Positions 3,343 to 64,000 are shown, counted from the stretch's first letter. The stretch is 64,000 nt of DNA from a virus (IMGVR_UViG_3300024331_000061:19784-83783); one strand, 5' to 3'. The notes: a model not told the origin generated them from the letters alone. A program made the numbers and translations.

Positions 3343-3620
3343 TAGTTGGTGTCGCCCCAGACGAGCAGGTAACCGGCGTCGTTCGCCAGCCCGGCTGGCA
3401 TGGTGACGGTGGTCCCGCTGACCGTGCAGACAGCGGTCCCGGCGATGGTGGTGGCCAGCATCGTGGCCTGCTTGACCAGCTGGAAGTCCTGGGCGACCCC
3501 GGCCGGGCCGAGGTCCACCGTGTCACCCGCCGTGACCTTGCTGATCCTGTAGAGCACCGTCCGGTCGGGGGCGTCATTGGTGTAGACCGCCCGCAGCTGG
3601 GCTGCTGTGATGGCTGCCAT
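3342..3620 (-). CDS. Small virion structural protein
   Basis: 92-aa ORF with 1-nt stop/start overlaps on both sides. Confidence 0.6.
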   Translation of the reverse strand: MAAITAAQLRAVYTNDAPDRTVLYRISKVTAGDTVDLGPAGVAQDFQLVKQATMLATTIAGTAVCTVSGTTVTMPAGLANDAGYLLVWGDTN

Positions 3621-4339
3621 CAGGTCACCGTGCCAGCGCCGGACGGGAAGCCGAAGCTGATCGTCTCGGTGGCGGTCCAGGTCTGCCCGGCGGCCTTGGT
3701 GCCCTGGGCGCTGACGCCGTGGTTGAAGAAGATGCCGCCCGTGGTGGCGTTGGACACCGAGTCGGCGTTGCCGTTGTCGGTGCCGAACTCAGCCCAGACG
3801 AAGTTGGCCACCGCCGTGCCGAAGATCGAGACGAAGGTCAGCGTGGCCGGGCTGGCAGCGGTCTGGATCGTGGGTGCGCCGGACACCAGCTTGAAGTAGC
3901 TGGTGGTGCTGGCTGCGCCCGTGTCGCCGGTCAGCGTGGTGTTGGCGTAGGCCGCCGCCGTGGCCGACGTGCCGACCCCGATCCGGCCCTGCGTGGCGCT
4001 GAACTTGTTGGTGATCGAGGTGCCCGCGATCGAGCCGAGCAGCGCGACCATCCCGGCGATGCAGACCAGGTTGCAGTTCTCGTCGTGGGTGACCAGGTAG
4101 GGCTTGACGCCGTAGTAGGCGAACTGCCTGGGCGGGATGTCGTGCCAGGGTGGCGCTCCGAAGTCCTTCTGCACATGGCGCAGGGTCCAGGCGGTCTGCT
4201 CTTCGTCCCACCGTTCCACGTGGAACGAGGTCTGGATGGTGAGGAACTCCCGCATGCCGGTCTCCGCGTCCACGCGGAGGTGCTCGGACGCTCCCGTGAA
4301 CTCAGCTCCCGGCCCGAGAGGCGTGTCTGAATAGCTCAT
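3620..4339 (-). CDS. Minor tail protein
   Basis: 239 aa. The IGVGTSATAA...TLTFVSIFGTAVANFVWAEFG segment is typical of actinophage tail-tip proteins; position agrees. Confidence 0.6.
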   Translation of the reverse strand: MSYSDTPLGPGAEFTGASEHLRVDAETGMREFLTIQTSFHVERWDEEQTAWTLRHVQKDFGAPPWHDIPPRQFAYYGVKPYLVTHDENCNLVCIAGMVALLGSIAGTSITNKFSATQGRIGVGTSATAAAYANTTLTGDTGAASTTSYFKLVSGAPTIQTAASPATLTFVSIFGTAVANFVWAEFGTDNGNADSVSNATTGGIFFNHGVSAQGTKAAGQTWTATETISFGFPSGAGTVT

Positions 4340-17814: not shown

Positions 17815-19011
17815 CTACGACAGGCCCATCTGCTGCTTGGCCCGCGCGATCACGTCGGCGCGCGAGGTCTCCGCAGCGGTGGCCTGGGCGTCCTCGGGGC
17901 CTTCCATCGCGGAGCCCAGCTCCACGCCGAGGTCGAGCATCTGCGCCATCTTGGCGTACTCGCTCAGCACCCGGCGCATGACCTGGCCGGCGTCCACCCG
18001 CGTGCCGCCGGTCAGCTCGATCACGTGCCCGGAGCCCTGGAGCAGCGGCCGGGCCAGCTCGGTGATGTACGGCGGGATGCCGAGGTCAGCCAGGCTGCGC
18101 TTCTCGCCCTCGAACTTCTGGGCATCGAACTGGACCTGGAAGACACCCAGCTGGCGCTCGGTCTCGTCGGCGCGGGCGTTGGCCAGGTCGATGGCCATCT
18201 GGGCCTGGTTGGTCAGGCCGGTGGCGGCAGCGCCAGCCCCGGTCTCGGCCAGGAACTCGCTCTCCAGGTCGGCCAGGTCCTCGTCGCTCATCGCCTCGAT
18301 GAGGTCGGCCAGCTCCTGGTCGGTCAGCTCGTTGTCGGGCTGGCCGCCGGTGCCGTTGGTGCCGCTGGCCGGGGGAGCTGGCGGTGCCGTGCCGAGCAGC
18401 TTGTCCAGGGCAGCCGCGTCCAGGTTGAGCAGCCTGGTCAGGTTGGCCTGCTGCTGGGCGTTCAGTTCGGGCATGGTGTCTTCCTCCCCAGCAAAGCTGG
18501 CTCCGGTGAGATCGATGACAAGAGACGGCGTGTTGGCCGCCTCGATGGTCTGCCACGCGCCCAGACCGGGGATGCGCGGGTCCAGCGTGCCGAGGACGTG
18601 CTGCACGGCGGCGGGGTAGAACTTACCGTCTGACCTGGCATAATTCTCGACAATCCTGGCCGACACCCCCAAATACGGGTTCTCCCTCAGCACCTGCTCG
18701 CCGCGCTCGGTGGGCTGGAGGTACAGCCAGAGGCCGTCATCCTCGGAGCGGAGGTCCGTGATGGTGCCCCTGTGACGCTCGGGATCGTTGGTGTGCGTGT
18801 TCTTCGCGTCGGCTAGCTGGAAGGACACCTGGTCGTAGGCGCGGTCGCGGAACGCCTGCGCCAGGCTGTCGTTGTAGTCCTTGCTGAAGTGCAGCATGCG
18901 GCCCTGGTACTCCACGTCATCGACGGGCAGCACGCGCTTCTTCCAGAGCCGGTTGCCCAGCTCGATCGCGTTGCCCCGGAAGAACGGGGTCAGGACCGCA
19001 GCGGTATCCAT
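17815..19011 (-). CDS. Prohead (capsid maturation) protease with C-terminal scaffold
   Basis: 398 aa. The N-half has H...G-x-I-x-x-L...Y-x-x-VS-x-x-I...L-x-HV-x-x-T-x-x-P, as in Mu I-type proteases; the C-half is acidic coiled-coil. Confidence 0.8.
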   Translation of the reverse strand: MDTAAVLTPFFRGNAIELGNRLWKKRVLPVDDVEYQGRMLHFSKDYNDSLAQAFRDRAYDQVSFQLADAKNTHTNDPERHRGTITDLRSEDDGLWLYLQPTERGEQVLRENPYLGVSARIVENYARSDGKFYPAAVQHVLGTLDPRIPGLGAWQTIEAANTPSLVIDLTGASFAGEEDTMPELNAQQQANLTRLLNLDAAALDKLLGTAPPAPPASGTNGTGGQPDNELTDQELADLIEAMSDEDLADLESEFLAETGAGAAATGLTNQAQMAIDLANARADETERQLGVFQVQFDAQKFEGEKRSLADLGIPPYITELARPLLQGSGHVIELTGGTRVDAGQVMRRVLSEYAKMAQMLDLGVELGSAMEGPEDAQATAAETSRADVIARAKQQMGLS

Positions 19012-31318: not shown

Positions 31319-31531
31319 TTACCGCCCGCCGCGCTGGCGGATGATATAAGCGATCAGCTGGTGAGCGCAGCCGATATCGCTGGCGAGCTTGCGCATGGTC
31401 CACTTCCGCCGGTCCTCGTTGCGCAGCTCCATGATGAGCCGGTCCCGCGAATCACGACGGCGGCCCGCCTCCTGTTCGAGACGAGCCGCCGCCTGATGGT
31501 GCTCACGGGCCTGCTGAGCCCGTATGTCCAC
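31319..31531 (-). CDS. Small HTH DNA-binding protein
   Basis: 70 aa; WTMRKLASDIGCAHQLIAYI helix-turn-helix pattern; directly downstream of Ro60. Confidence 0.55.
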   Translation of the reverse strand: MDIRAQQAREHHQAAARLEQEAGRRRDSRDRLIMELRNEDRRKWTMRKLASDIGCAHQLIAYIIRQRGGR

Positions 31532-31546
31532 TGCTATCCGGCCTCC

Positions 31547-33223
31547 TTACAATGCGCCGCTGGCGAAGTCCGCCAGCAGCCTCGGCACGGCCTGGTCGAA
31601 CCCGGATACGTCCAGCGTGCGCCAGTCGGCCGGGTCCGCGATGGTGAAGTTGGTGGGCGTGTAGGCCACGACAGCCAGCCGGGCGTCGATGCCCATCTTC
31701 TGCCGGTAGTCCTCCAGGGCCTGGTGCGGGTGGATGTCCCCGTACCAGGTCTCGTTGTCGGTGTGGATCTCGAACACGTCCACCGGGATGCGGTGCTTGG
31801 CCGCCTCCAGCATCGGGACGGCGCAGTTCGTGCCGCCCATCTGCATCCCGAGCGCGACCTGCATCACGTCATCCAGGCGCATGCGCGGGCTGATGGGGTA
31901 CTCGCTGATGCCCGAGTTCATCCCGTTGATCCGGGTCCACCGGCTCGGGTAGCTGCCGTGGGTGAACGCGGTGATCATGTGCTGCGGCTCGGTGGCCGCC
32001 GTCACCAGCGCGGCTGCACTGGCCAGCTCGCGGCAGCTGATGGGCAGGCCGCCAGCCGGGTGGCCCATCGAGCCGCTGATGTCCACGGCCACGTTGCGCC
32101 GCTTCCCGGTCACCGGCACCGCGCCGTAGCTCAGGTAGAACGACTCGTCCAGCGCATCGCAGACCTGCTGGCTGACCGGCCAGTGATCCGTGCTGCGGGC
32201 ACCGTGCCCGCTGGCGTAGGTGCGCAGCGCGACCAGCTGGTTGACCGGGTGGATGCGGGCCTTCGCCAGCCCCTCGGCGTCGGTCAGCCGGGCGGTCACC
32301 AGGCGCGTGGTCTCGCTCATGGGGGTGAGCAGGCCGAGGCGGCTGATCTGGCCCAGGCGCTTGACCAGCGTGCCCAGCGGGATGCCGGTGTGGATCAGCG
32401 CGTCCCAGACCTCGGGGCTGGCCAGGGCCTCGGACGGCAGCATCTCGTGCGTCAGCTTGGACGTGCCGGGCGTGCCGTTGTAGTCCCCGATCAGCCGGGC
32501 GATCTGGTGGTTCGTGGTGCCGGGGTGCCAGACCTGCTGGTAGGCGTGCAGCAGCTGGGGCATGTCGCCCTTCAGCCACATCGACTCGCGGCGGCCCTTC
32601 AGGATGTAGTTGAACAGCATCACGTGGCTGCGCGGGATGGGCTGGCGGCCGAAGTGGCTCAGCCGCAGCAGGTCGCGCTGGCTCCAGTCATCGCGGCTCT
32701 TGTACTTCATGACCTGGTAGGCGACCTCATCGGCGTCCTTGTCGGTGTACCACTTGCCGACCGCCTTGGTCAGCGCGCGGCCCCAGCCACGGAACTGCTC
32801 GATGTAGCCCGCGAACGTGAGCAGGTGCGAGCCGGTGCGGCAGACCAGCGGCAGCCGGTCGAGCGCGGCCTGGCGGTAGTGCGTGTCGCCCAGGCTGGCT
32901 GCGGCGGCGAGGGAGAAGATCGCCGGGTTGACGCGCGGTGCGCGCCCGCCGATGCTGATGTCCTCGATTTCCTCGATCAGCCGGTAGTCGTTCGCCTTGG
33001 CCATGCGGATCACCCGCGCAGCTGCGGCCTTGGTCATCTTGGGCTCGGTCGCGTTGAACGTGCCGCCCTCGGTGCCCATGGTCAGGAAGCGCCGCAGCGC
33101 GGTGACCTCGGAAGTCTGGAAGGTGTAGCCCCCGGCGCTGTTGGGCACCTGGCGCGGGTCAGCGCGCCGGGACTGCGGAGTAGGGGACCTGCGGGTGTAT
33201 ATGTCGGAAAGGGAGTCAGGCAT
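31547..33223 (-). CDS. rsr: Ro60 / TROVE-domain RNA-binding protein (Rsr-like)
   Basis: QVPNSAGG...LRRFLTMGTEGGT TROVE N-terminus; vWA MIDAS DISGSM, GGTNC and TDNETW motifs; 558 aa. Confidence 0.95.
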   Translation of the reverse strand: MPDSLSDIYTRRSPTPQSRRADPRQVPNSAGGYTFQTSEVTALRRFLTMGTEGGTFNATEPKMTKAAAARVIRMAKANDYRLIEEIEDISIGGRAPRVNPAIFSLAAAASLGDTHYRQAALDRLPLVCRTGSHLLTFAGYIEQFRGWGRALTKAVGKWYTDKDADEVAYQVMKYKSRDDWSQRDLLRLSHFGRQPIPRSHVMLFNYILKGRRESMWLKGDMPQLLHAYQQVWHPGTTNHQIARLIGDYNGTPGTSKLTHEMLPSEALASPEVWDALIHTGIPLGTLVKRLGQISRLGLLTPMSETTRLVTARLTDAEGLAKARIHPVNQLVALRTYASGHGARSTDHWPVSQQVCDALDESFYLSYGAVPVTGKRRNVAVDISGSMGHPAGGLPISCRELASAAALVTAATEPQHMITAFTHGSYPSRWTRINGMNSGISEYPISPRMRLDDVMQVALGMQMGGTNCAVPMLEAAKHRIPVDVFEIHTDNETWYGDIHPHQALEDYRQKMGIDARLAVVAYTPTNFTIADPADWRTLDVSGFDQAVPRLLADFASGAL

Positions 33224-33249
33224 CGTGATCGTTTCCTTTCATGAAGAAA

Positions 33250-33322
33250 GCCCCGCGAGCATAAGCATTCCGGCCGGGGATACTGTCCGACACGGTAACC
33301 GGCCGAATCCGGCTCGCGGGGC
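33250..33322 (-). ncRNA. Short Y RNA (73 nt; Ro-binding module only)
   Basis: Terminal stem GCCCCGCGAGC/GCUCGCGGGGC with GAGCCGGAUU...UUAUGCUC internal motif and GGUUACCG, shared with the two upstream elements. Confidence 0.8.
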
Positions 33323-33345
33323 ATTCAGTTCTTCTGGGTTGAGCA

Positions 33346-33394
33346 GCTGCCGTGTCCCCCGGTTTGGGGGGGTGAACCAAGGGACACATGCAGC
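33346..33394 (-). other. Long hairpin with C7 loop between Y RNAs
   Basis: GCUGC-AUGUGUCCC-UUGGUU-CACCCCCCCA-AACCGG-GGGACAC-G-GCAGC folds into an extended stem. Confidence 0.6.
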
Positions 33395-33402
33395 CACAAA
33401 AA

Positions 33403-33498
33403 GCGCGGCGAGCATAAATGAAAGCCCGGTAAGAAGTGCCCTTGCGGACACCTTCCCGTTTGGAAGGCGGTAACCGGACCTAATCCGGCTCGCCACGC
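33403..33498 (-). ncRNA. Y RNA (96 nt) with two distal hairpins
   Basis: Same Ro-binding ends (GCGUGGCGAGCCGGAUUAGG...AUUUAUGCUCGCCGCGC); distal hairpins CCUUCC/GGAAGG and UGUCC-GCAA-GGGCA. Confidence 0.8.
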
Positions 33499-33516
33499 GG
33501 ATGATCTTGAGTTATG

Positions 33517-33666
33517 GGCGATGAGCATAAATCTCAGCCTGGGGTTTTAGCGCTCTAGCCCTGAGCTACCGTCCCTGGCCCTTTCGGGTTAGCGGGACGG
33601 GCGGGGACTCCAACCCCGCATCCTCTCCGTTAGCAGCGGTAACCAGACCAATTCCGGCTCATCACC
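33517..33666 (-). ncRNA. yrlA: YrlA-type tRNA-mimicking Y RNA (150 nt)
   Basis: Ro-binding terminal stem, a T-arm (GCGGGG-UUGGAGU-CCCCGC), a closed acceptor-like stem (CCGUCCC/GGGACGG) and a D-arm (GGUAGCUCAGGGCUAGAGC) in permuted order; adjacent to Ro60. Confidence 0.88.
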
Positions 33667-33674
33667 TTGTCCAT

Positions 33675-33703
33675 AAGCTAGACGACTTTCGCCGGTCTGT
33701 CAA
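33675..33703 (-). promoter_or_regulatory. Sigma70/HrdB-type promoter of the Y RNA-Ro60 cassette
   Basis: TTGACA (33703-33698), 17 nt, TAGCTT (33680-33675). The predicted start at ~33668-33666 coincides with the YrlA 5' end. Confidence 0.8.
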
Positions 33704-56569: not shown

Positions 56570-57021
56570 GCATCGGCGGCGACTGCATCCACGACATCCG
56601 GGCCGAGTGGTGCCTGGACTGCAACCCCCCGGCCGATCCTGTCTCCAACCCGCAGATCTGGGGCGAGCAGGCGTTCGAGGTCATCCCGGTGGATGACCCG
56701 ATCCCGCTGGCCGAGGCAGCTGACCTGGCTGGCTTGTCCGAGCACCAGTTCAGCACGGGCGTGGCCTGGCTCCGGGAGACCTACCCGGACCTGCCGCTGG
56801 TCAGCTCCCGCAACGGCCTCCAGTTCACGCTGGACGCCGATCAGGTGCTCCAGTTCCGCGCCGCCCGCATCCGCAGCTCCCTGACCACGGTCAGGCGGGT
56901 GATCCGGGGTGCGGTCCTGCCGTACATCAGGCAGGTCAACCCCTCGGCAGAGCGCCAGCTGGCGCGGCAGGCCAACCGCCTGTTCGAGGACATCCAGGAG
57001 CTTCTGGACATCCCCGTCTGA
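56566..57021 (+). CDS. Winged-HTH-like protein
   Basis: PLAEAADLAGLSEHQFSTGVAWLRE...; ATGA overlap. Confidence 0.55.
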   Translation: MSIGGDCIHDIRAEWCLDCNPPADPVSNPQIWGEQAFEVIPVDDPIPLAEAADLAGLSEHQFSTGVAWLRETYPDLPLVSSRNGLQFTLDADQVLQFRAARIRSSLTTVRRVIRGAVLPYIRQVNPSAERQLARQANRLFEDIQELLDIPV

Positions 57022-57083
57022 TGCACGAACCGGGTGCCCGCGCCTGCGGGCACCCGGCCGACGATCACGATAGAAGGAGAGAA

Positions 57084-57455
57084 ATGCCAACCCCGAGACG
57101 TATCAACCGAAGCTCCCCGTCGCTCTTGTCTAAGAGCGAGCAGGAAGCCTTCGTCAACGCGGTCGAGCAGCGCGATGAGGTCCTCAGGGGCCTGGAGGCA
57201 CTGCTGGGCGTCACCTGGGCTGATCTGAGCTTCGGTGAGAAGGTCAACGCCGCCCAGGCGTACCAGGAGAGCGGTCGCGGCGCTGCCGTCATGGCAGTAG
57301 CGGCCAGGGCCTGGCGGGACCTGGAAGAGCTGGGTGATGCCGCCACCGGCAAGATCAGCCTGGCTGACGAGCTGATCCGGGCTCGTGAGTACATCGACCA
57401 GCTGCGCGTCGAGAACGAGTCCCTGCGCCAGCAGGTGGCCAGGAGGGCATCATGA
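57084..57455 (+). CDS. Helical hypothetical protein
   Basis: Start reassigned to ATG 57084 after AAGGAG; C-terminal coiled-coil; ATGA-coupled to the Cas7-like gene. Confidence 0.6.
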   Translation: MPTPRRINRSSPSLLSKSEQEAFVNAVEQRDEVLRGLEALLGVTWADLSFGEKVNAAQAYQESGRGAAVMAVAARAWRDLEELGDAATGKISLADELIRAREYIDQLRVENESLRQQVARRAS

Positions 57456-58246
57456 GCGCAAGGGACCTGTTCCACGTCGATGATGCCTTCGTGACGTATG
57501 AGGCACAATTGCAGATCAGGGACTTCCTGGTCGGCGGCGTGCCCAGCGGCCCGAGCACCATCCGCAACTGGCTCCGCGCCAGGCTGGACGCCGGGGACAC
57601 CGAGCTGGAAGAGATCATCCGCGAGACGATGGCCGAGCGCAATAGCCCGATGAGCATCGATGAGCAGCTCACCCTGCTCATGGCATCGGATGCCAGCCCC
57701 TCGGTCAACGGATTCAAGAGAATGCCGACTGGTGAGCTGGCGTATGAATCCCGCTGCCTGAAAGGCGGGTTCAAAGAATGGGCCAATTCGGCTTATCCCG
57801 GATTGGACTGGGACGGGAAATGGGCGTCAAAGGACCCCGCTCCCGAGCCCGCTGCCGTTCCCGATCTCCCGGCCAAGGGAAAGCGCAAGCCCCCGGCGCG
57901 CAAAGCCGTATACGGCGTAGCGGGCCAGAAGGGCCTGCTGTCCACCGCAGCTGAGCGGGTGTTCTTCGACCCGCCGCTGATCGGCCTGGGCGTCACGGAG
58001 CCGAGCGCAGTAGAAGAGCGGATCAAGCGCGTTCGTCTTCCCGACGGCCGACCGGCATCCGCTATCTCCAGGGTCGAGGTGGTCGAGAAGCCGCTATTGA
58101 CCTTCGTGGTCAAGATCCGTGACAATTTCCTTTCCGATGAGGCATTGGGCAGGATCTGGATGACCGGCGAAGAAATCGGAATTGGCGCAGACCGCGCCCG
58201 ATCCGACGGGAGATTCGATTTGGTCTCCTGGAAAAGAATCTCGTAG
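57452..58246 (+). CDS. Solo Cas7/RAMP-like RNA-binding protein (Vipr-like)
   Basis: 264 aa; N-terminal beta strand, AYESRCLKGGFKE (RAMP helix-1-like) and C-terminal Gly-rich loop GIGADRARSDGRF-x-x-V; no other cas genes nearby. Confidence 0.7.
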   Translation: MSARDLFHVDDAFVTYEAQLQIRDFLVGGVPSGPSTIRNWLRARLDAGDTELEEIIRETMAERNSPMSIDEQLTLLMASDASPSVNGFKRMPTGELAYESRCLKGGFKEWANSAYPGLDWDGKWASKDPAPEPAAVPDLPAKGKRKPPARKAVYGVAGQKGLLSTAAERVFFDPPLIGLGVTEPSAVEERIKRVRLPDGRPASAISRVEVVEKPLLTFVVKIRDNFLSDEALGRIWMTGEEIGIGADRARSDGRFDLVSWKRIS

Positions 58247-58272
58247 TACCTTGTATCACTGATACGCCACGG

Positions 58273-58296
58273 GCCGGGCGTCGGGAGACGCCCGGC
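58273..58296. terminator. GC hairpin between the Cas7-like gene and the array
   Basis: GCCGGGCGTC-GGGA-GACGCCCGGC, a 10-bp stem. Confidence 0.55.
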
Positions 58297-58329
58297 TTGA
58301 TGTGGCTAACCAAACGCAATTTGACTTCC

Positions 58330-60245
58330 CCAGCCCTGTCACGTCAGGTCTCACCAAACCCGCCCGACTCGCCAGCCCCAGACGGATCAGGCCCCGCCTC
58401 GTCCTAGCCTCGCCAGCCCGACTAGCCTGCCCCTCGCCCCGCCATGTTCCGGCCGCGCTCATCTTCACGCCCCGCCAGCCCGACATGCCGCACCAGGCCC
58501 TTCCGTCCCGGACCGACTACCCGGCCCTCGCCTTAGCCGACGCCCAGCCCCGCCGACTTGTCGCGCCCCCCTCGTGTCAAGCCTCGTCCGCGCCTGCCCG
58601 TCCCTGGCCGCACCGACTCGCCAGTTTCACTATCGCGCCTCGCTCGCGTGCATCCTCGCGCCTCGCCTTCCCGACCACCCGCAACTCGCCTGCCCGCCCC
58701 CGAGCCGACTTGTCACCTCCTTGCCTTGGCCAAGCCATCACCCGCCGACAAGCCAACCCGAGCCGCCCCCGGATCGCCCCGAGCCGCTCCGTGCCCTGCC
58801 GACATGCCGCGTCATGCCATCTCGCGCCTCGCCCGGCCAGGTCTCACCGACTCGCCATCCCATGCCCCGTCAACCCGCGCCGACTCGCCAACTCCTGGCC
58901 CTGTCACCAGCGCACCGCGCCGATCCGTCCCACACCCACCCGACTCGCCGCGCCTGGCCGAACACGGACCTCGCCGTGCCCGTCCGACTTCCCCAGCCTT
59001 GGTCAGCTCCTTGCCGTATCAAGCCGACCACCCTTGCCTAGCCTCGTCAGCCCGTGCCGACTACCCACGAGCAGCCCCACCCATGAACGAGCCTGGCCAT
59101 GCCTCACCGACGAGCCGCGCCGTGCCCCGCCCTGTTCTCACCCACCCCTCATCAGACCGACTGGCCTTGGCCATGCCTGCCCTTGCCGCGCCCGTCTCAG
59201 GCCCCGCCGTGCCCGACCGACGTACCCTGCCTGCATCTTTCCGCACCTGACCATCTTGACTAGCCTTCCCATCGCCACGCCCACGCCACGCCTCGCCGCT
59301 CCCCGCCGACAGTCCGTGTCCCGTCAGATCACGCCTGCCCTAGCCATTCCGCACCGACTAGCCCAGCCTGCCCGCCTCACGCCCGGCCGCACCGACTTGC
59401 CTCGCCGCGCCGCCCCCTTCATCCAGCTCAGACCGACTGGCCGTCCCTCCCCATCCCGATCCGCTCCGACTCGCCATGCTCTAGCCGAGCCTGCCCGACT
59501 ATCCTCGCCTATCCGCGACCGAGCCAGGTCTTCCCACGCCGACTACCCGAGCCGCGCCTGCCCATCCCGACATGCCCCGCCCCGCCTCGCCATGTTCACT
59601 CCGGGCCATACCGACCATCCCTGCCTCTGTCTCGCCACCCCCAGCCGACTTGCCGTCCTCTGACCCGTGCCTGCTTCCTGCCCGGCCTAGCCCTCACGAC
59701 CCGTCAGTCCAGCTCATGTCCCGTCCCGCCGTCCCTCGCCCTGCCGACGCGCCAGTCCATACCACGGCACCCCTCTCCAGACCAGCACGACTTGCCTCGC
59801 CATGCCCCCGACCTCACCCGGCCCAGACCGACTCACCTCGCCTCCCCATCCCTATCCGACTCACCTCGTCAACCCTCCCCTTGACCGCCCGACTTCCCGA
59901 GCCTTCCCGTGCCGCGTCTCGCCGTCCCGACGAGCCTGATCACGCCGTACCTCGCCTGCCCGCACCGACTCGCCCGGCCACGCTCTGCCTCCAGCCCGGC
60001 CTTGCCTGATCGACTGGCCCAACCCAACCGATCCACACCTCGCCACGCCAGCCCGACCCGCCAGCCCGCAGCTCACCACGCCATCGCATGCCGACTGACC
60101 TCGCCTTACACCTCACCTGGCCCGACCCTGCCGACTCGCCAATCTCTCTGCCAGGCCCCTCCTTGCCGTCCCGAGCCTGCCCGACGGCCCAGGCCCGCCC
60201 GATCCGCGCCGGTAGCAAGCCAGCCCGGCAAACCTGTGCGACCCT
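58330..60245 (-). repeat. Array of ~40 pentamer-coded units (GG(Y)NN)n punctuated by GTC; putative guide-RNA array
   Basis: About 40 CCGAC (minus strand GTCGG) delimiters. Spacings cluster near 28, 33, 38-40, 44, 48-50, 54 and 58-62 nt, i.e. roughly 3+5n. GG is fixed at pentamer positions 1-2 on the minus strand. Confidence 0.85.
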
Positions 60246-60251
60246 GACTCC

Positions 60252-60584
60252 ATGGCACCAACCGAAAGCAAAGTGAAAGCATCGACCACCGCAGCTGCGA
60301 TCAGCGGCATGGGCTTGTGGCTGCTGGGGCGGTATGTATTTAAAGGTGCAGTACCTGATGTCGTCACCTCATGGACGTACGTCCTGGTGCCGGGCATCCT
60401 GGCCTGGGCAGCCGGGTACGCGGCGCACCATACGCATAGACCGGACCTGGAGGACCGATCGGCGGGGCTGCCTGGCATCGCCACCCTCGGAATCCCTCCG
60501 ACACGCCCTGTGACCAGGAATAACACCGAGCCACCGCCTGTTCCGGTGACCGAGGAAGGGGGAGCCCAGGCCCCTCCCGTGTAA
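60252..60584 (+). CDS. Putative holin
   Basis: E-x-KVKA-x-T-x-A-x-x...two TM helices...AGY-x-A-x-HT-x-RPD, typical of actinophage holins. Confidence 0.6.
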   Translation: MAPTESKVKASTTAAAISGMGLWLLGRYVFKGAVPDVVTSWTYVLVPGILAWAAGYAAHHTHRPDLEDRSAGLPGIATLGIPPTRPVTRNNTEPPPVPVTEEGGAQAPPV

Positions 60585-60624
60585 CCTGGCCGGATAGGAA
60601 ACGATGACGATGAAGGGAAGTCCG

Positions 60625-62269: not shown

Positions 62270-62455
62270 ATGAGCGCACCCAGCGGAAAATTGCACTACA
62301 GCAGCTGGGTGCGCGAGGGCTACACGCTCTGCGGCCGGGTGATCAAGGGCAGCCTGCGGGTGACCCCTGAAGTCGGCAAGATCACCTGCATCATGTGCAA
62401 GGGCAGCCCGGCGCTGGACGGCCTGCTGGGCAACATGACCCACGCGGGGCACTGA
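62270..62455 (+). CDS. Small Zn-binding hypothetical protein
   Basis: H...TLCG...ITC-x-x-C motif. Confidence 0.5.
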   Translation: MSAPSGKLHYSSWVREGYTLCGRVIKGSLRVTPEVGKITCIMCKGSPALDGLLGNMTHAGH

Positions 62456-64000
62456 TGCCCGACGGTGCGCTCGATCACGTCAAGCTGCACCGCGTGGACA
62501 GCCTGGCTGAGCTGGACAACTGCCGCCGCTGGGCATCGGAGCGGCGGGAGACACCGCTGTTCGCTGACACCGAAAGCGGCGGGCTCAACCCGCACAAGGA
62601 CCGGCACCGGCTCAGCCAGCTCGGGGACAAGCGGCACGGCTGGGCCTTCCCGGTCGGCTGGACCGGCGCGTTCATGGAGCTGCTCATGAACTACGCCGGG
62701 CTGATCGGCTTCCACAACAGCCCCTATGACTGGCGGGTGCTGACCGTGCACGCGGGTGCCGTCCCGCAGTGGCACAAGACCGAGGACACGCTGCTGCTCG
62801 GGCACATCACCGACTCACTGCGGCTGGCCGGGCTGAAGCCGCGCAGCGCCCAGGAGATCGACAGCCGGGCCATACGCGGCGAGACGATGATGCTGGAGGG
62901 CATGGCCGCCCGGCACTGGACGTTCGCGGACGTGCCCGACACCTGGGCTCCCTGGTGGATGTACGGCGCGCTGGACCCGGTGCTGGCGGCGCACCTGTGG
63001 GACCTGCCGAGCTTCCGCCAGGCCCGCCAGCTCTACAGCCAGGCGTATGACACCGAGCGGGCGACCGCGCGGATCTGCGCGAACATGATGCTGACCGGCA
63101 TGATGACCGACGTTCCCTTTGTCGAGCAGAAGATCAGCGAGATCACCGCCTACACCGATAAGGCGGCGAACTGGCTGCGGCGCGAGTTCGGCATCGGCAA
63201 CGTGAACAGCTCAGCCCAGGTGATCGCCGCGATGAACGCCACCGGCATCCCCACGATGGTCTACACCGAGAAGGGCAACCCCTCCCTGGACAAGGAGGCC
63301 CTGAAGTTCTACCGGCACATGTTCCCGCAGCACAGCCACCTGATCGACGCGATCGGCTGGTGCCGCAAGGGCGACAAGCTGGTGGGCAGCTACCTGTCCA
63401 AGTTCCTGGCGCTGCGCGGCTCCGACGACATCATGCACTACAACATCCACAGCTGCCGGGCCAGGACCACCCGGATGAGCATCACCGACCCGCCGATGCA
63501 GACCTTTGACCGGGACGTGCCCGCCGTGCGGGGGAGCTTCCGGCCGCGTCCGGGGCACGTGTTCATCACCATCGACGCCGACCAGATCGAGGCCCGGCTG
63601 GCCGCCCACTTCAGCGCCGACCCGCGCATGATCGCGGACTTCTGGTACGCCGACGAGCACCAGCTGAAGTTCTTCATCGAGATGGCCAGCCGGATCTACA
63701 GCGAGCGGATCACCAAGCGCGACCCGCGCTACACCTGGACCAAGAACGCCACCTACGCCCAGATCTACGGCAGCGGCCTGGACAAGGCAGCTGCCACGGC
63801 TGGCGTGCCCGTCGAGACGATGCGCCCCGCCTACTCGGGGCTGGCGCAGATGTACCCGAACGTCAAGCGGCTGATGGACCGGCTGATCGCGGAGGCGAAG
63901 GGCAAGCGGCCGAAGGTGCAGACCATCGACGGCCGGTGGCTCTACACCTACCGGGGCAAGGAATACGCCCTGCTCAACACGCTGATCCAGGGCAGTGCCA
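62455..64000 (+). CDS. polA: Family A DNA polymerase (3'-5' exonuclease + polymerase), truncated by the window edge
   Basis: ExoI DTE, ExoII HN-x-x-YD, motif A IDADQIEARL, motif B KNATYAQIYG, and LLNTLIQGSA; frame open to 64000. Confidence 0.92.
   Translation, partial: MPDGALDHVKLHRVDSLAELDNCRRWASERRETPLFADTESGGLNPHKDRHRLSQLGDKRHGWAFPVGWTGAFMELLMNYAGLIGFHNSPYDWRVLTVHAGAVPQWHKTEDTLLLGHITDSLRLAGLKPRSAQEIDSRAIRGETMMLEGMAARHWTFADVPDTWAPWWMYGALDPVLAAHLWDLPSFRQARQLYSQAYDTERATARICANMMLTGMMTDVPFVEQKISEITAYTDKAANWLRREFGIGNVNSSAQVIAAMNATGIPTMVYTEKGNPSLDKEALKFYRHMFPQHSHLIDAIGWCRKGDKLVGSYLSKFLALRGSDDIMHYNIHSCRARTTRMSITDPPMQTFDRDVPAVRGSFRPRPGHVFITIDADQIEARLAAHFSADPRMIADFWYADEHQLKFFIEMASRIYSERITKRDPRYTWTKNATYAQIYGSGLDKAAATAGVPVETMRPAYSGLAQMYPNVKRLMDRLIAEAKGKRPKVQTIDGRWLYTYRGKEYALLNTLIQGSA

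What the first reader, a model, noticed from the sequence alone, without database searches (positions are those of the whole stretch)
58330..60245. Pentamer-coded ~1.9 kb array: candidate library of ~40 non-contiguous guide RNAs
Seen (minus strand): units are GTC plus n pentamers starting GG. Examples: 59024-59057 GGCAC GGGCT GACGA GGCTA GGCAA GGGTG; 59354-59392 GGTGC GGCCG GGCGT GAGGC GGGCA GGCTG GGCTA; 59433-59466 GGAGC GGATC GGGAT GGGGA GGGAC GGCCA; 59828-59856 GGATA GGGAT GGGGA GGCGA GGTGA. Unit lengths step by about 5 nt, no two units appear identical, and the 5-nt period is incompatible with codons. Inference: GG(Y) is a protein-bound scaffold and the variable NN positions, read across a unit, encode a gapped target. 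(A)GTCGG would mark processing sites. Likely use: interference against competing phages or host genes.
Basis: partly seen in the sequence, partly recalled or inferred. Interest (0 to 1): 0.95.

Follow-up and report, generated by a model that had tools for sequence, protein, structure and literature searches.

The report
Phage VIPR guide-RNA array, antisense form
This 1.9 kb stretch is a real array of about 42 short guide RNAs belonging to VIPR, a CRISPR-related phage system first described in 2026 preprints, so the kind is known; this member is unusually large and its array runs opposite to its protein gene.

Summary
Window 58330-60245 is non-coding, 50% C on the + strand and 5-nt periodic. 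It is cut into about 42 units by GTCGG (minus strand): 43 copies against 6.9 in shuffles.

The upstream gene 57452-58246 folds as a Cas7/Csm3-type RAMP and is a remote homologue of phrog_4652, the family that contains the Vipr protein of Escherichia phage SUSP1. In IMG/VR, 70 of 117 loci found by the DNA pattern alone carry such a gene beside the array. This is the VIPR system (bioRxiv 10.64898/2026.04.26.720920 and .720927): Vipr plus guide RNAs (vrRNAs) made of GGY/NN pentamers. This scan has flagged VIPR-like arrays on other DNA more than 100 times.

Under the published 1-nt-skip rule, one unit matches the small terminase gene of three related uncultured phages at 18/18. Another matches the prohead protease/scaffold gene of two relatives at 17/18, and the phage's own copy at 16/18. 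In all cases the skipped base is the codon wobble position.

This clade differs in several ways. The array is antisense to vipr in all 18 loci examined. Units are GTC-delimited and have no tails. One covarying hairpin closes the array, and the G-loop reads GIGADR rather than GVGDWR. The transcribed strand and the processing sites are not shown.

The parts
57021..57455 (+). Candidate accessory (vap-like) gene, 144 aa, with a coiled-coil-like C-terminus. Its stop overlaps the vipr start.
   Evidence: Every locus of the clade has an ORF of about 115-375 aa (most 125-145) ending at the vipr start. Sequence similarity between them is weak (best E 0.003). There is no Pfam or PHROG hit, and only one other homologue exists in the 5.8-billion-protein set. 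The role is inferred from position only.
57452..58246 (+). vipr-like gene: a 264-aa stand-alone RAMP (Cas7/Csm3-like) protein with G-loop IGIGADRARSDGRF.
58258..58315 (-). Conserved hairpin that closes the array on the vipr side. It would be a 3' tail/terminator if the minus strand is transcribed. In the window an extra GC-rich hairpin sits in its loop.
   Evidence: The element GGCTAGCC-GY..loop..RC-GGCGTCGC is found in 13 clade loci besides the window. The stem shows compensatory changes: GCCGT/ACGGC, GCCGC/GCGGC, GCCGG/CCGGC, and GCCAC/GTGGC in the window.
58330..60245 (-). vrRNA-type array: about 42 units, each GTC plus 4-11 pentamers G(G/A)-Y-N-N, with no per-unit tail.
   Evidence: No Rfam family reaches its gathering score. 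The 453-aa + strand ORF over this region has no 3-nt periodicity.
59311..59358 (-). Guide unit of 9 pentamers, decoded as GC.AT.TA.CA.GT.CT.GG.AC.CT.
   Evidence: It matches 17/18 in the prohead protease/scaffold orthologue of related phages G001 and G003, and 16/18 in the phage's own gene. NN falls on codon positions 1-2. None of 1500 dinucleotide-order shuffles, and none of 1500 base shuffles, reach 17. Only 1 hit with at most 1 mismatch was found in 401 genomes of the host-lineage order, with 0 for the backward control.
58804..58851 (-). Guide unit of 9 pentamers, decoded as GA.CT.CG.GA.GC.AT.AT.GC.AT.
   Evidence: It matches 18/18 in three IMG/VR contigs (L157-L159) that are 90-95% identical to one another and 64-65% GC. 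The site lies in frame in a small terminase gene (phrog_57, E 7.5e-27; peptide ELREAIIAI). Two other 18-base guides and the backward control gave 0 hits.
18584..18609 (-). Site in the phage's own prohead protease/scaffold gene (17815-19011, minus strand) that matches guide 59358 at 16/18.
   Evidence: The peptide is AVQHVLGT, against AIQHVLGT in G001 and G003.

Best explanation
The locus is a VIPR system.

Components: the 264-aa protein (57452-58246) is a Vipr-type RAMP. The 1.9 kb tract encodes a precursor for about 42 short vrRNAs.

Mechanism, by analogy with the published system (inferred here): one Vipr protomer binds each pentamer and buries G-G/A-Y. The two variable bases of successive pentamers then pair with double-stranded DNA, skipping every third target base. 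Binding blocks transcription of genes of rival phages.

Features shown for this actinobacterial clade:
- The array lies antisense to vipr.
- Units are separated only by GTC.
- A single covarying hairpin sits between the array and the vipr stop.

Inferred for this clade: the G-rich minus strand is transcribed convergently with vipr, the hairpin acts as its 3' tail/terminator, and the precursor is cut at or near GTC. About half of the units are in good register, and I take those to be the active guides.
For: Protein: Cas7-type fold. Homology to the phrog_4652/SUSP1 Vipr family.

Linkage: 70 of 117 IMG/VR loci found only by (GGNNN)x9 encode that family next to the array.

Array: 5-nt period, GGY bias with near-random NN, and 43 GTCGG delimiters.

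Clade architecture: all 17 other loci of this protein clade (Streptosporangiales genomes and three MAG or read-assembly contigs) have a 0.3-0.9 kb C-rich, CCGAC-punctuated tract directly after the gene.

Hairpin: conserved, with compensatory changes.

Targets: an 18/18 in-frame match to terS of another phage group, and a 17/18 in-frame match to the protease/scaffold gene of two relatives that lack vipr.

Published mechanism: bioRxiv 10.64898/2026.04.26.720920 and .720927.
Against:
- No sigma-70-type promoter was found on the minus strand upstream of the array.
- Several GGY-contact residues of SUSP1 Vipr seem not to be conserved, by my own hand alignment. The SUSP1 G-loop is GVGDWR and here it is GIGADR. 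No His stands at the H17 position.
- The phrog_4652 model itself does not hit the window protein.
- In about 1.6 Mb of local DNA, the decoded guides as a set show no excess over shuffles or over other skip rules.
- The three terS hits count as one independent event. My rough estimate (inference) is about one chance hit per 18-base scan of IMG/VR.
- 22 of 42 units lose register early.
Confidence: 0.85

Rival explanations
1. It is a VIPR-type system, but the functional RNA is the C-rich + strand, co-transcribed with vipr. The pentamers would read NN-R-Y-C with CCGAC boundaries, and a Vipr with altered base specificity would bind them.
For: - In nearly all other loci the array is on the vipr sense strand and starts 3-50 nt after the stop (89 of 95 gene-array pairs). 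Co-transcription is therefore the usual arrangement.
- No minus-strand promoter was found.
- The G-loop residues that read the two G's in SUSP1 differ here.
- L123 and L124 have hairpins at the far end of the array, before the next + strand gene.
- The target matches cannot tell the strands apart.
Against: - Only the minus strand reproduces the published order 5'-GG-Y-NN-3', with Y following GG.
- The conserved hairpin lies 3' of the repeats only on the minus strand, as published tails do.
- Many clade loci have a GC-rich hairpin between the vipr stop and the array, which suits convergent units.
- The related phage G002 carries a canonical GGCNN array.
Confidence: 0.2
2. The array is largely a relic. 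Only a minority of units still work as guides, and the rest are decaying duplicates or slippage products, so 'a library of about 40 guides' overstates it.
For: Only 20 of 42 units keep 6 or more pentamers in register. Spacings of 5n+4 and 5n are nearly as common as 5n+3. Only 2 of 20 testable guides gave notable matches.
Against: The preprint reports frequent internal degeneracy in working vrRNAs. NN strings are all distinct and there are no long internal duplications. GTCGG boundaries are kept throughout the array. The databases searched for targets were small or allowed exact matches only.
Confidence: 0.3
3. It is not an RNA-guide array. It would be a DNA-level element such as a G-quadruplex or R-loop replication origin near polA, an array of protein-binding sites, or the 453-aa Pro/Arg-rich ORF on the + strand.
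For: The tract lies 2 kb upstream of polA, and G002 has its array directly upstream of polA. G2N3 repeats could form two-tetrad quadruplexes (my inference). The ORF 58302-59663 is open.
Against: The same kind of array follows a Vipr-family gene in phages of many lineages whatever the neighbouring genes. It was shown experimentally to give Vipr-bound RNAs in SUSP1. Periodicity is 5 nt, not 3.
Confidence: 0.03

Closest known systems
VIPR systems (Vipr protein + vrRNA), e.g. type II of Escherichia phage SUSP1 and the Pseudomonas fulva prophage; bioRxiv 10.64898/2026.04.26.720920 and 10.64898/2026.04.26.720927
   Same: - A small stand-alone RAMP gene in a phage early region, with no cas genes and no CRISPR repeats.
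- A neighbouring non-coding tract of pentamers with a conserved GGY and hypervariable NN.
- Decoded NN-x-NN matches fall in coding sequences of other phages, with the skipped base on the wobble position.
   Different: - The array is antisense to vipr, and this holds in 18 of 18 loci of the clade.
- There are about 42 units in 1.9 kb, against 1-4 vrRNAs of about 100 nt in SUSP1.
- Units are 25-60 nt with 4-11 pentamers, against 9-16.
- There is no promoter or tail per unit. GTC is the only separator, and one hairpin closes the whole array.
- G(A)Y pentamers are frequent.
- The G-loop is GIGADR rather than GVGDWR.
- The candidate accessory gene lies upstream of vipr and is not phrog_15946.
'Staggered' vrRNA arrays of the same preprint (its fig. 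S18, legend only readable)
   Same: Guides are contiguous, so that the end of one marks the start of the next, with no intervening tails or ribozymes. The window array looks like this.
   Different: I could read only the legend. Neither a GTC separator nor an antisense orientation is mentioned in the text I could read. Whether this clade is one of the seven published types is unknown.
Cas7 backbone subunits of class 1 CRISPR effectors (Csm3, Cmr4, type VII Cas7, type IV Csf2)
   Same: RRM core with a C-terminal glycine-rich loop. These are the best structural matches. One protomer binds per fixed stretch of guide RNA.
   Different: There is no CRISPR repeat-spacer array, and no Cas5, Cas6, Cas10 or Cas11 gene in the window. 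The period is 5 nt with 2 pairing bases, not 6 nt with 5. Sequence identity is 10-15%.

Membership tests
VIPR (Vipr + vrRNA) | Thumb element that flips the GGY bases | not tested
   I could not inspect model coordinates. Residues about 116-160 form a low-confidence excursion (pLDDT 55-74) that might be the thumb. This is unverified.
VIPR (Vipr + vrRNA) | Sequence homology to established Vipr proteins (SUSP1 agp039) | tested here: met
   The link is indirect. A profile of array-linked phrog_4652 proteins hits SUSP1 agp039 at E 7.3e-42. The window clade aligns to that profile with hhalign prob 93.8%, E 1.8e-7 over residues 84-264. The direct phrog_4652 HMM and the clade's own profile do not cross-hit.
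VIPR (Vipr + vrRNA) | GGY-contact residues of SUSP1 Vipr (H17, R138, D177, W178, R179) | tested here: inconclusive
   By hand alignment of the G-loops, R179 corresponds to R248, D177 to A246, and W178 to D247. No His stands at the first strand. The alignment is remote, so the equivalences are uncertain.
VIPR (Vipr + vrRNA) | At least four tandem YNNGG (GGY/NN) repeats in intergenic DNA flanking vipr | tested here: met
   There are 203 GG-N3-GG pairs in 1916 nt, and runs of up to 9 in-phase pentamers. The array starts 84 nt after the vipr stop.
VIPR (Vipr + vrRNA) | Conserved GGY with hypervariable NN | tested here: met
   The position after GG is 60% C/T (1.75 bits). The NN positions have 1.96 and 1.99 bits. 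All NN strings are distinct. This array is more degenerate than canonical ones (L003: 75% Y).
VIPR (Vipr + vrRNA) | Invariable structured 3' tail after each repeat tract (type II) | tested here: not met
   Units abut through GTC only. A single conserved hairpin lies at the vipr-proximal end of the whole array. The preprint describes other architectures without per-unit tails, so this does not exclude membership in the family.
VIPR (Vipr + vrRNA) | Accessory vap gene beside vipr | tested here: inconclusive
   A conserved-position ORF (57021-57455) precedes vipr in all clade loci, but it has no family hit and only weak mutual similarity.
VIPR (Vipr + vrRNA) | Viral or proviral context | tested here: met
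   The window is an 83.8 kb IMG/VR virus record rated 100% complete. Clade members sit among phage-type genes in actinobacterial genomes.
VIPR (Vipr + vrRNA) | Targets found by the 1-nt-skip rule, with the skipped base on the wobble position | tested here: met
   Two of 20 testable guides gave notable matches: 18/18 in terS of L157-L159, and 17/18 in the protease/scaffold gene of G001 and G003. Both are in frame. There was no aggregate excess in small local databases, so support rests on these two guides.
VIPR (Vipr + vrRNA) | vrRNAs are expressed and co-purify with Vipr; binding represses transcription | not testable with these tools
This needs bench work.
CRISPR-Cas class 1 (types I/III/IV/VII) | Repeat-spacer CRISPR array and further cas genes (Cas5, Cas6, Cas10/Cas8, Cas11) | tested here: not met
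   There are no identical direct repeats of CRISPR type in the tract. Neighbouring ORFs have no Cas family hits. The period is 5 nt.

The most novel reading that the evidence does not exclude
The Streptosporangiales-phage clade may be a separate VIPR architecture that the preprints do not describe. It would be a convergently transcribed, tail-less mega-array, cut at GTC and closed by one hairpin, and read by a Vipr with a changed G-loop that accepts G-A-Y as well as G-G-Y. Array size ranges from 7-19 units in prophage relatives to 42 here. That range would then point to active gain of guides, and the 16/18 match to the phage's own protease gene hints that guides may be copied from homologous phage genes.
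Probability: 0.35. Interest if true: 0.65.

Novelty: new variant of a known kind. Interest (0 to 1): 0.5.

Why it matters
VIPR was described only in 2026 and mostly from Escherichia and Pseudomonas phages. This locus adds several things:
- The layout is consistently inverted, which raises questions about how the precursor is transcribed, terminated and cut.
- The G-loop is divergent, which bears on how the scaffold bases are read.
- Two guides have concrete candidate targets, terS and the prohead protease/scaffold gene of other phages. These are directly testable.
- One guide nearly matches the phage's own gene, which is relevant to self/non-self discrimination and to where guides come from.

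The kind itself is already known, and this scan has met it many times.

Tried and rejected
DNA and protein searches for relatives
- blastn of 57400-60600 against cultured phages found no match.
- Single-protein pattern scans of IMG/VR with the 264-aa and 176-aa proteins found no relatives.
- phmmer of the 264-aa protein against ORFs of the array loci hit only itself. Homology needed profile-profile comparison.
- Pfam, PHROGs and PDB sequence searches gave nothing for the 264-aa protein.
- Rfam at gathering scores gave no family in the window, so no hammerhead or known tail.

Early ideas dropped once the Vipr link appeared
- TRAP-like ring binding.
- A Rho-loading C-rich RNA.
- A Chi-like array.
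- A primase-site array (GTC is the T7 primase site).
- An R-loop or G4 origin.

Transcription
- The promoter scan found no minus-strand sigma-70 site. An AT-rich patch at about 60328-60366 (minus strand; TGACGA-17-TTAAAT by eye) is only a guess.
- Distal ends of the clade arrays show no shared motif by eye.
- G-U pairs in the hairpin occur on either strand, so they do not settle polarity.

Targets
- The aggregate target test of 20 guides against the phage's own genome, 3 relatives, 18 actinobacterial loci and 117 viral loci showed no excess of hits at 80% or 90% or more over shuffles or other skip rules.
- Sliding 8-pentamer windows of the G002 array gave no hits of 15/16 or better in G000-G003.
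- The single hit with at most 1 mismatch in 401 host-order genomes (L156) is not homologous to the protease gene.
- Exact IMG/VR scans of guides 59358 and 59748 gave 0 hits.

Accessory gene
- The vap candidate has too few homologues to fold usefully.

Full report
**1. What is there.**
The window is the right-hand 64 kb of an 83.8 kb IMG/VR virus record. Between a 264-aa gene (57452-58246, +) and a 110-aa ORF (60252, +) lies 1.9 kb with no credible gene.

The + strand of this tract is 50% C, with GC skew about -0.4. On the minus strand, the G autocorrelation peaks at lags 5 and 10, and then at 18, 23, 28, 33 and 38. It is negative at lag 3. Coding control windows show nothing at lag 5. The long Pro/Arg-rich + strand ORF is therefore an artefact of composition.

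GTCGG occurs 43 times, against 6.9 +/- 2.6 in shuffles. It sits in the context GG-Y-N-A | GTC-GG. Between delimiters lie 4-11 pentamers of the form G(G/A)-Y-N-N. The base after GG is C/T in 60% of cases, and the next two positions are essentially random.

Two details need correction. Spacing is 5n+3 in only 15 of 41 intervals, with 5n+4 in 13 and 5n in 9. Only 20 of 42 units hold register for 6 or more pentamers.

**2. The array type is widespread and tied to one protein family.**
A phage related by polA (G002/L003, 45% identity) has at least 3.1 kb of GGCNN pentamers directly upstream of polA.

A scan of IMG/VR for (GGNNN)x9 returned 117 or more loci. Many of them have 0.3-1.8 kb high-complexity pentamer tracts at 44-77% GC. 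In 70 of the 117, a protein of one family (phrog_4652) lies beside the tract. In 89 of 95 gene-array pairs the tract is G-rich on the gene's strand. It usually starts 3-50 nt after the stop codon, or lies just upstream, or lies about 0.5 kb downstream after a second gene of family phrog_15946.

Cultured phages carry these arrays too:
- Gordonia phage UmaThurman, where the array is annotated as CDS gp40.
- Mycobacterium phage Saal.
- Felixounavirus Andreotti.
- Escherichia phage SUSP1.

**3. The window's protein belongs to that family and is a RAMP.**
It has 186 or more homologues, many in Streptosporangiales genomes. Their alignment matches the phrog_4652-type alignment with hhalign probability 93.8%, E 1.8e-7.

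**4. It is a known system.**
A literature search found the VIPR preprints. Their main points are these:
- Vipr is a stand-alone viral RAMP.
- vrRNAs are 9-16 GGY/NN pentamers plus a 3' tail.
- One protomer binds each repeat and buries GGY.
- The NN bases pair with dsDNA while every third target base is skipped.
- Natural targets are rival phages and satellites, with the skipped base on the codon wobble position.
- Seven types exist, including 'staggered' arrays without tails.

SUSP1 agp039, the Vipr of that paper, is hit by my phrog_4652-type profile at E 7e-42. Its flanks show the published layout of one upstream and three downstream vrRNAs. The scan's own records hold more than 100 VIPR-like notes on other genomes.

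**5. What is particular here.**

(a) *Orientation.* In the window, and in all 17 other loci of its protein clade (L122, L124, L129-L143), the tract after vipr is C-rich on the gene strand. It is punctuated by CCGAC every 28-50 nt. The GGY strand is therefore antisense to vipr.

(b) *Unit structure.* Units are short, have no tails, and are separated only by GTC.

(c) *Closing hairpin.* A conserved hairpin lies between the vipr stop and the array. On the minus strand it reads GGCTAGCC-GY...RC-GGCGTCGC. It shows compensatory changes across loci, and the window has GCCAC/GTGGC. On the minus strand it lies 3' of the repeats, as a tail or terminator would.

(d) *Size.* The window has 42 units. The prophage relatives have 7-19.

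(e) *G-loop.* It reads GIGADR where SUSP1 has GVGDWR, whose D and W contact the two guanines. GA-Y pentamers are frequent in this clade.

(f) *Candidate accessory gene.* It lies upstream of vipr, overlaps the vipr start, and has no family assignment.

I could not see the preprint's figures or data files. I therefore cannot say whether this clade is among its seven types.

**6. Which strand is the RNA?**
Not shown. I favour the minus strand, at about 70%, for three reasons. Only the minus strand gives 5'-GG-Y-NN-3'. The hairpin is then a 3' element. GC-rich hairpins between vipr and the array suit convergent units.

Three things count against it. No promoter was found. Co-transcription on the sense strand is the rule elsewhere. 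The G-contact residues have changed. The target matches cannot discriminate between the strands.

**7. Targets.**
I decoded the 20 units that have 6 or more in-phase pentamers as NN-x-NN. Against about 1.6 Mb of local DNA there was no aggregate excess over shuffles or over other skip rules. These guides carry only 12-18 informative bases, so background is high. Two guides stand out.

- *Unit 59358 (18 bases).* It matches 17/18 at orthologous sites in the prohead protease/scaffold gene of relatives G001 and G003, and 16/18 in the phage's own gene. NN falls on codon positions 1-2: AIQHVLGT in the relatives, AVQHVLGT in the phage's own copy.
  - None of 1500 dinucleotide-order shuffles, and none of 1500 base shuffles, reached 17.
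  - About 3 Gb of host-order genomes gave a single, unrelated hit with at most 1 mismatch, and none for the backward control.
  - G001 and G003 have no detectable vipr or array.
- *Unit 58851 (18 bases).* It matches 18/18 in three mutually related 64-65% GC viral contigs, in frame in a small terminase gene.
  - Two other 18-base guides and a backward control gave no hit in the same collection.
  - The three hits count as one event, and about one chance hit per scan is conceivable by my estimate. This match is suggestive rather than decisive.

Both targets are essential morphogenesis or packaging genes of other phages, as the VIPR model predicts. The 16/18 self-match exceeds the preprint's 80% cut-off, at which it reported no self-targets. 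This is unexplained.

**8. Verdict.**
The kind is already described, in 2026 preprints. This is a divergent clade with an inverted, tail-less, very large array. Expression, strand, processing and activity remain to be shown.

Noticed in passing
window 18584-18609 (minus strand), in gene 17815-19011: The phage's own prohead protease/scaffold gene matches one of its own guides at 16/18 (89%). This is above the 80% cut-off at which the VIPR preprint reported no self-targets. Relatives without VIPR match at 17/18. It could reflect tolerated near-self, autoregulation, or the origin of the guide.
   Followed up: partly
L003 1-3125 (G002:C1:71889-75011): A related phage (polA 45% identical) has at least 3.1 kb of canonical GGCNN pentamers running to the contig end, directly upstream of polA and G-rich on the polA strand. 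No vipr gene was detected on that contig, which is rated 96% complete.
   Followed up: partly
L125 3063-3370 (Gordonia phage UmaThurman, NC_031249.1 about 33354-33661): The annotated CDS gp40 ('hypothetical protein') coincides with a GGY/NN pentamer array that follows the Vipr-family gene gp39. It is probably a mis-annotated vrRNA array. Mycobacterium phage Saal has such an array upstream of gp51.
   Followed up: partly
L015, L092, L007, L103 and L127 (Felixounavirus Andreotti 1900-2300 and 3400-3780): In lower-GC phages the arrays are modular. Each module has a promoter-like AT-rich box, about 13 pentamers and a structured tail, and this is repeated 2-4 times. This matches the published SUSP1 layout.
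   Followed up: partly
window 62395-63999 and L004: The polA gene runs off the contig end both in this record and in the related record G003. This may be a shared assembly break or a genome terminus inside or near polA.
   Followed up: no
window 60252-60584: A 110-aa ORF with hydrophobic segments starts 7 nt after the array end and has no obvious Shine-Dalgarno sequence. If the array is transcribed from the minus strand, its promoter would lie inside this ORF. An AT-rich patch sits at about 60328-60366.
   Followed up: no
window 31319-33703: Earlier notes of this scan report a Ro60 gene with three Y-RNA-like RNAs between terL and portal. ARAGORN calls a tRNA-Ser-like gene at 33594-33672. I did not examine this.
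   Followed up: no
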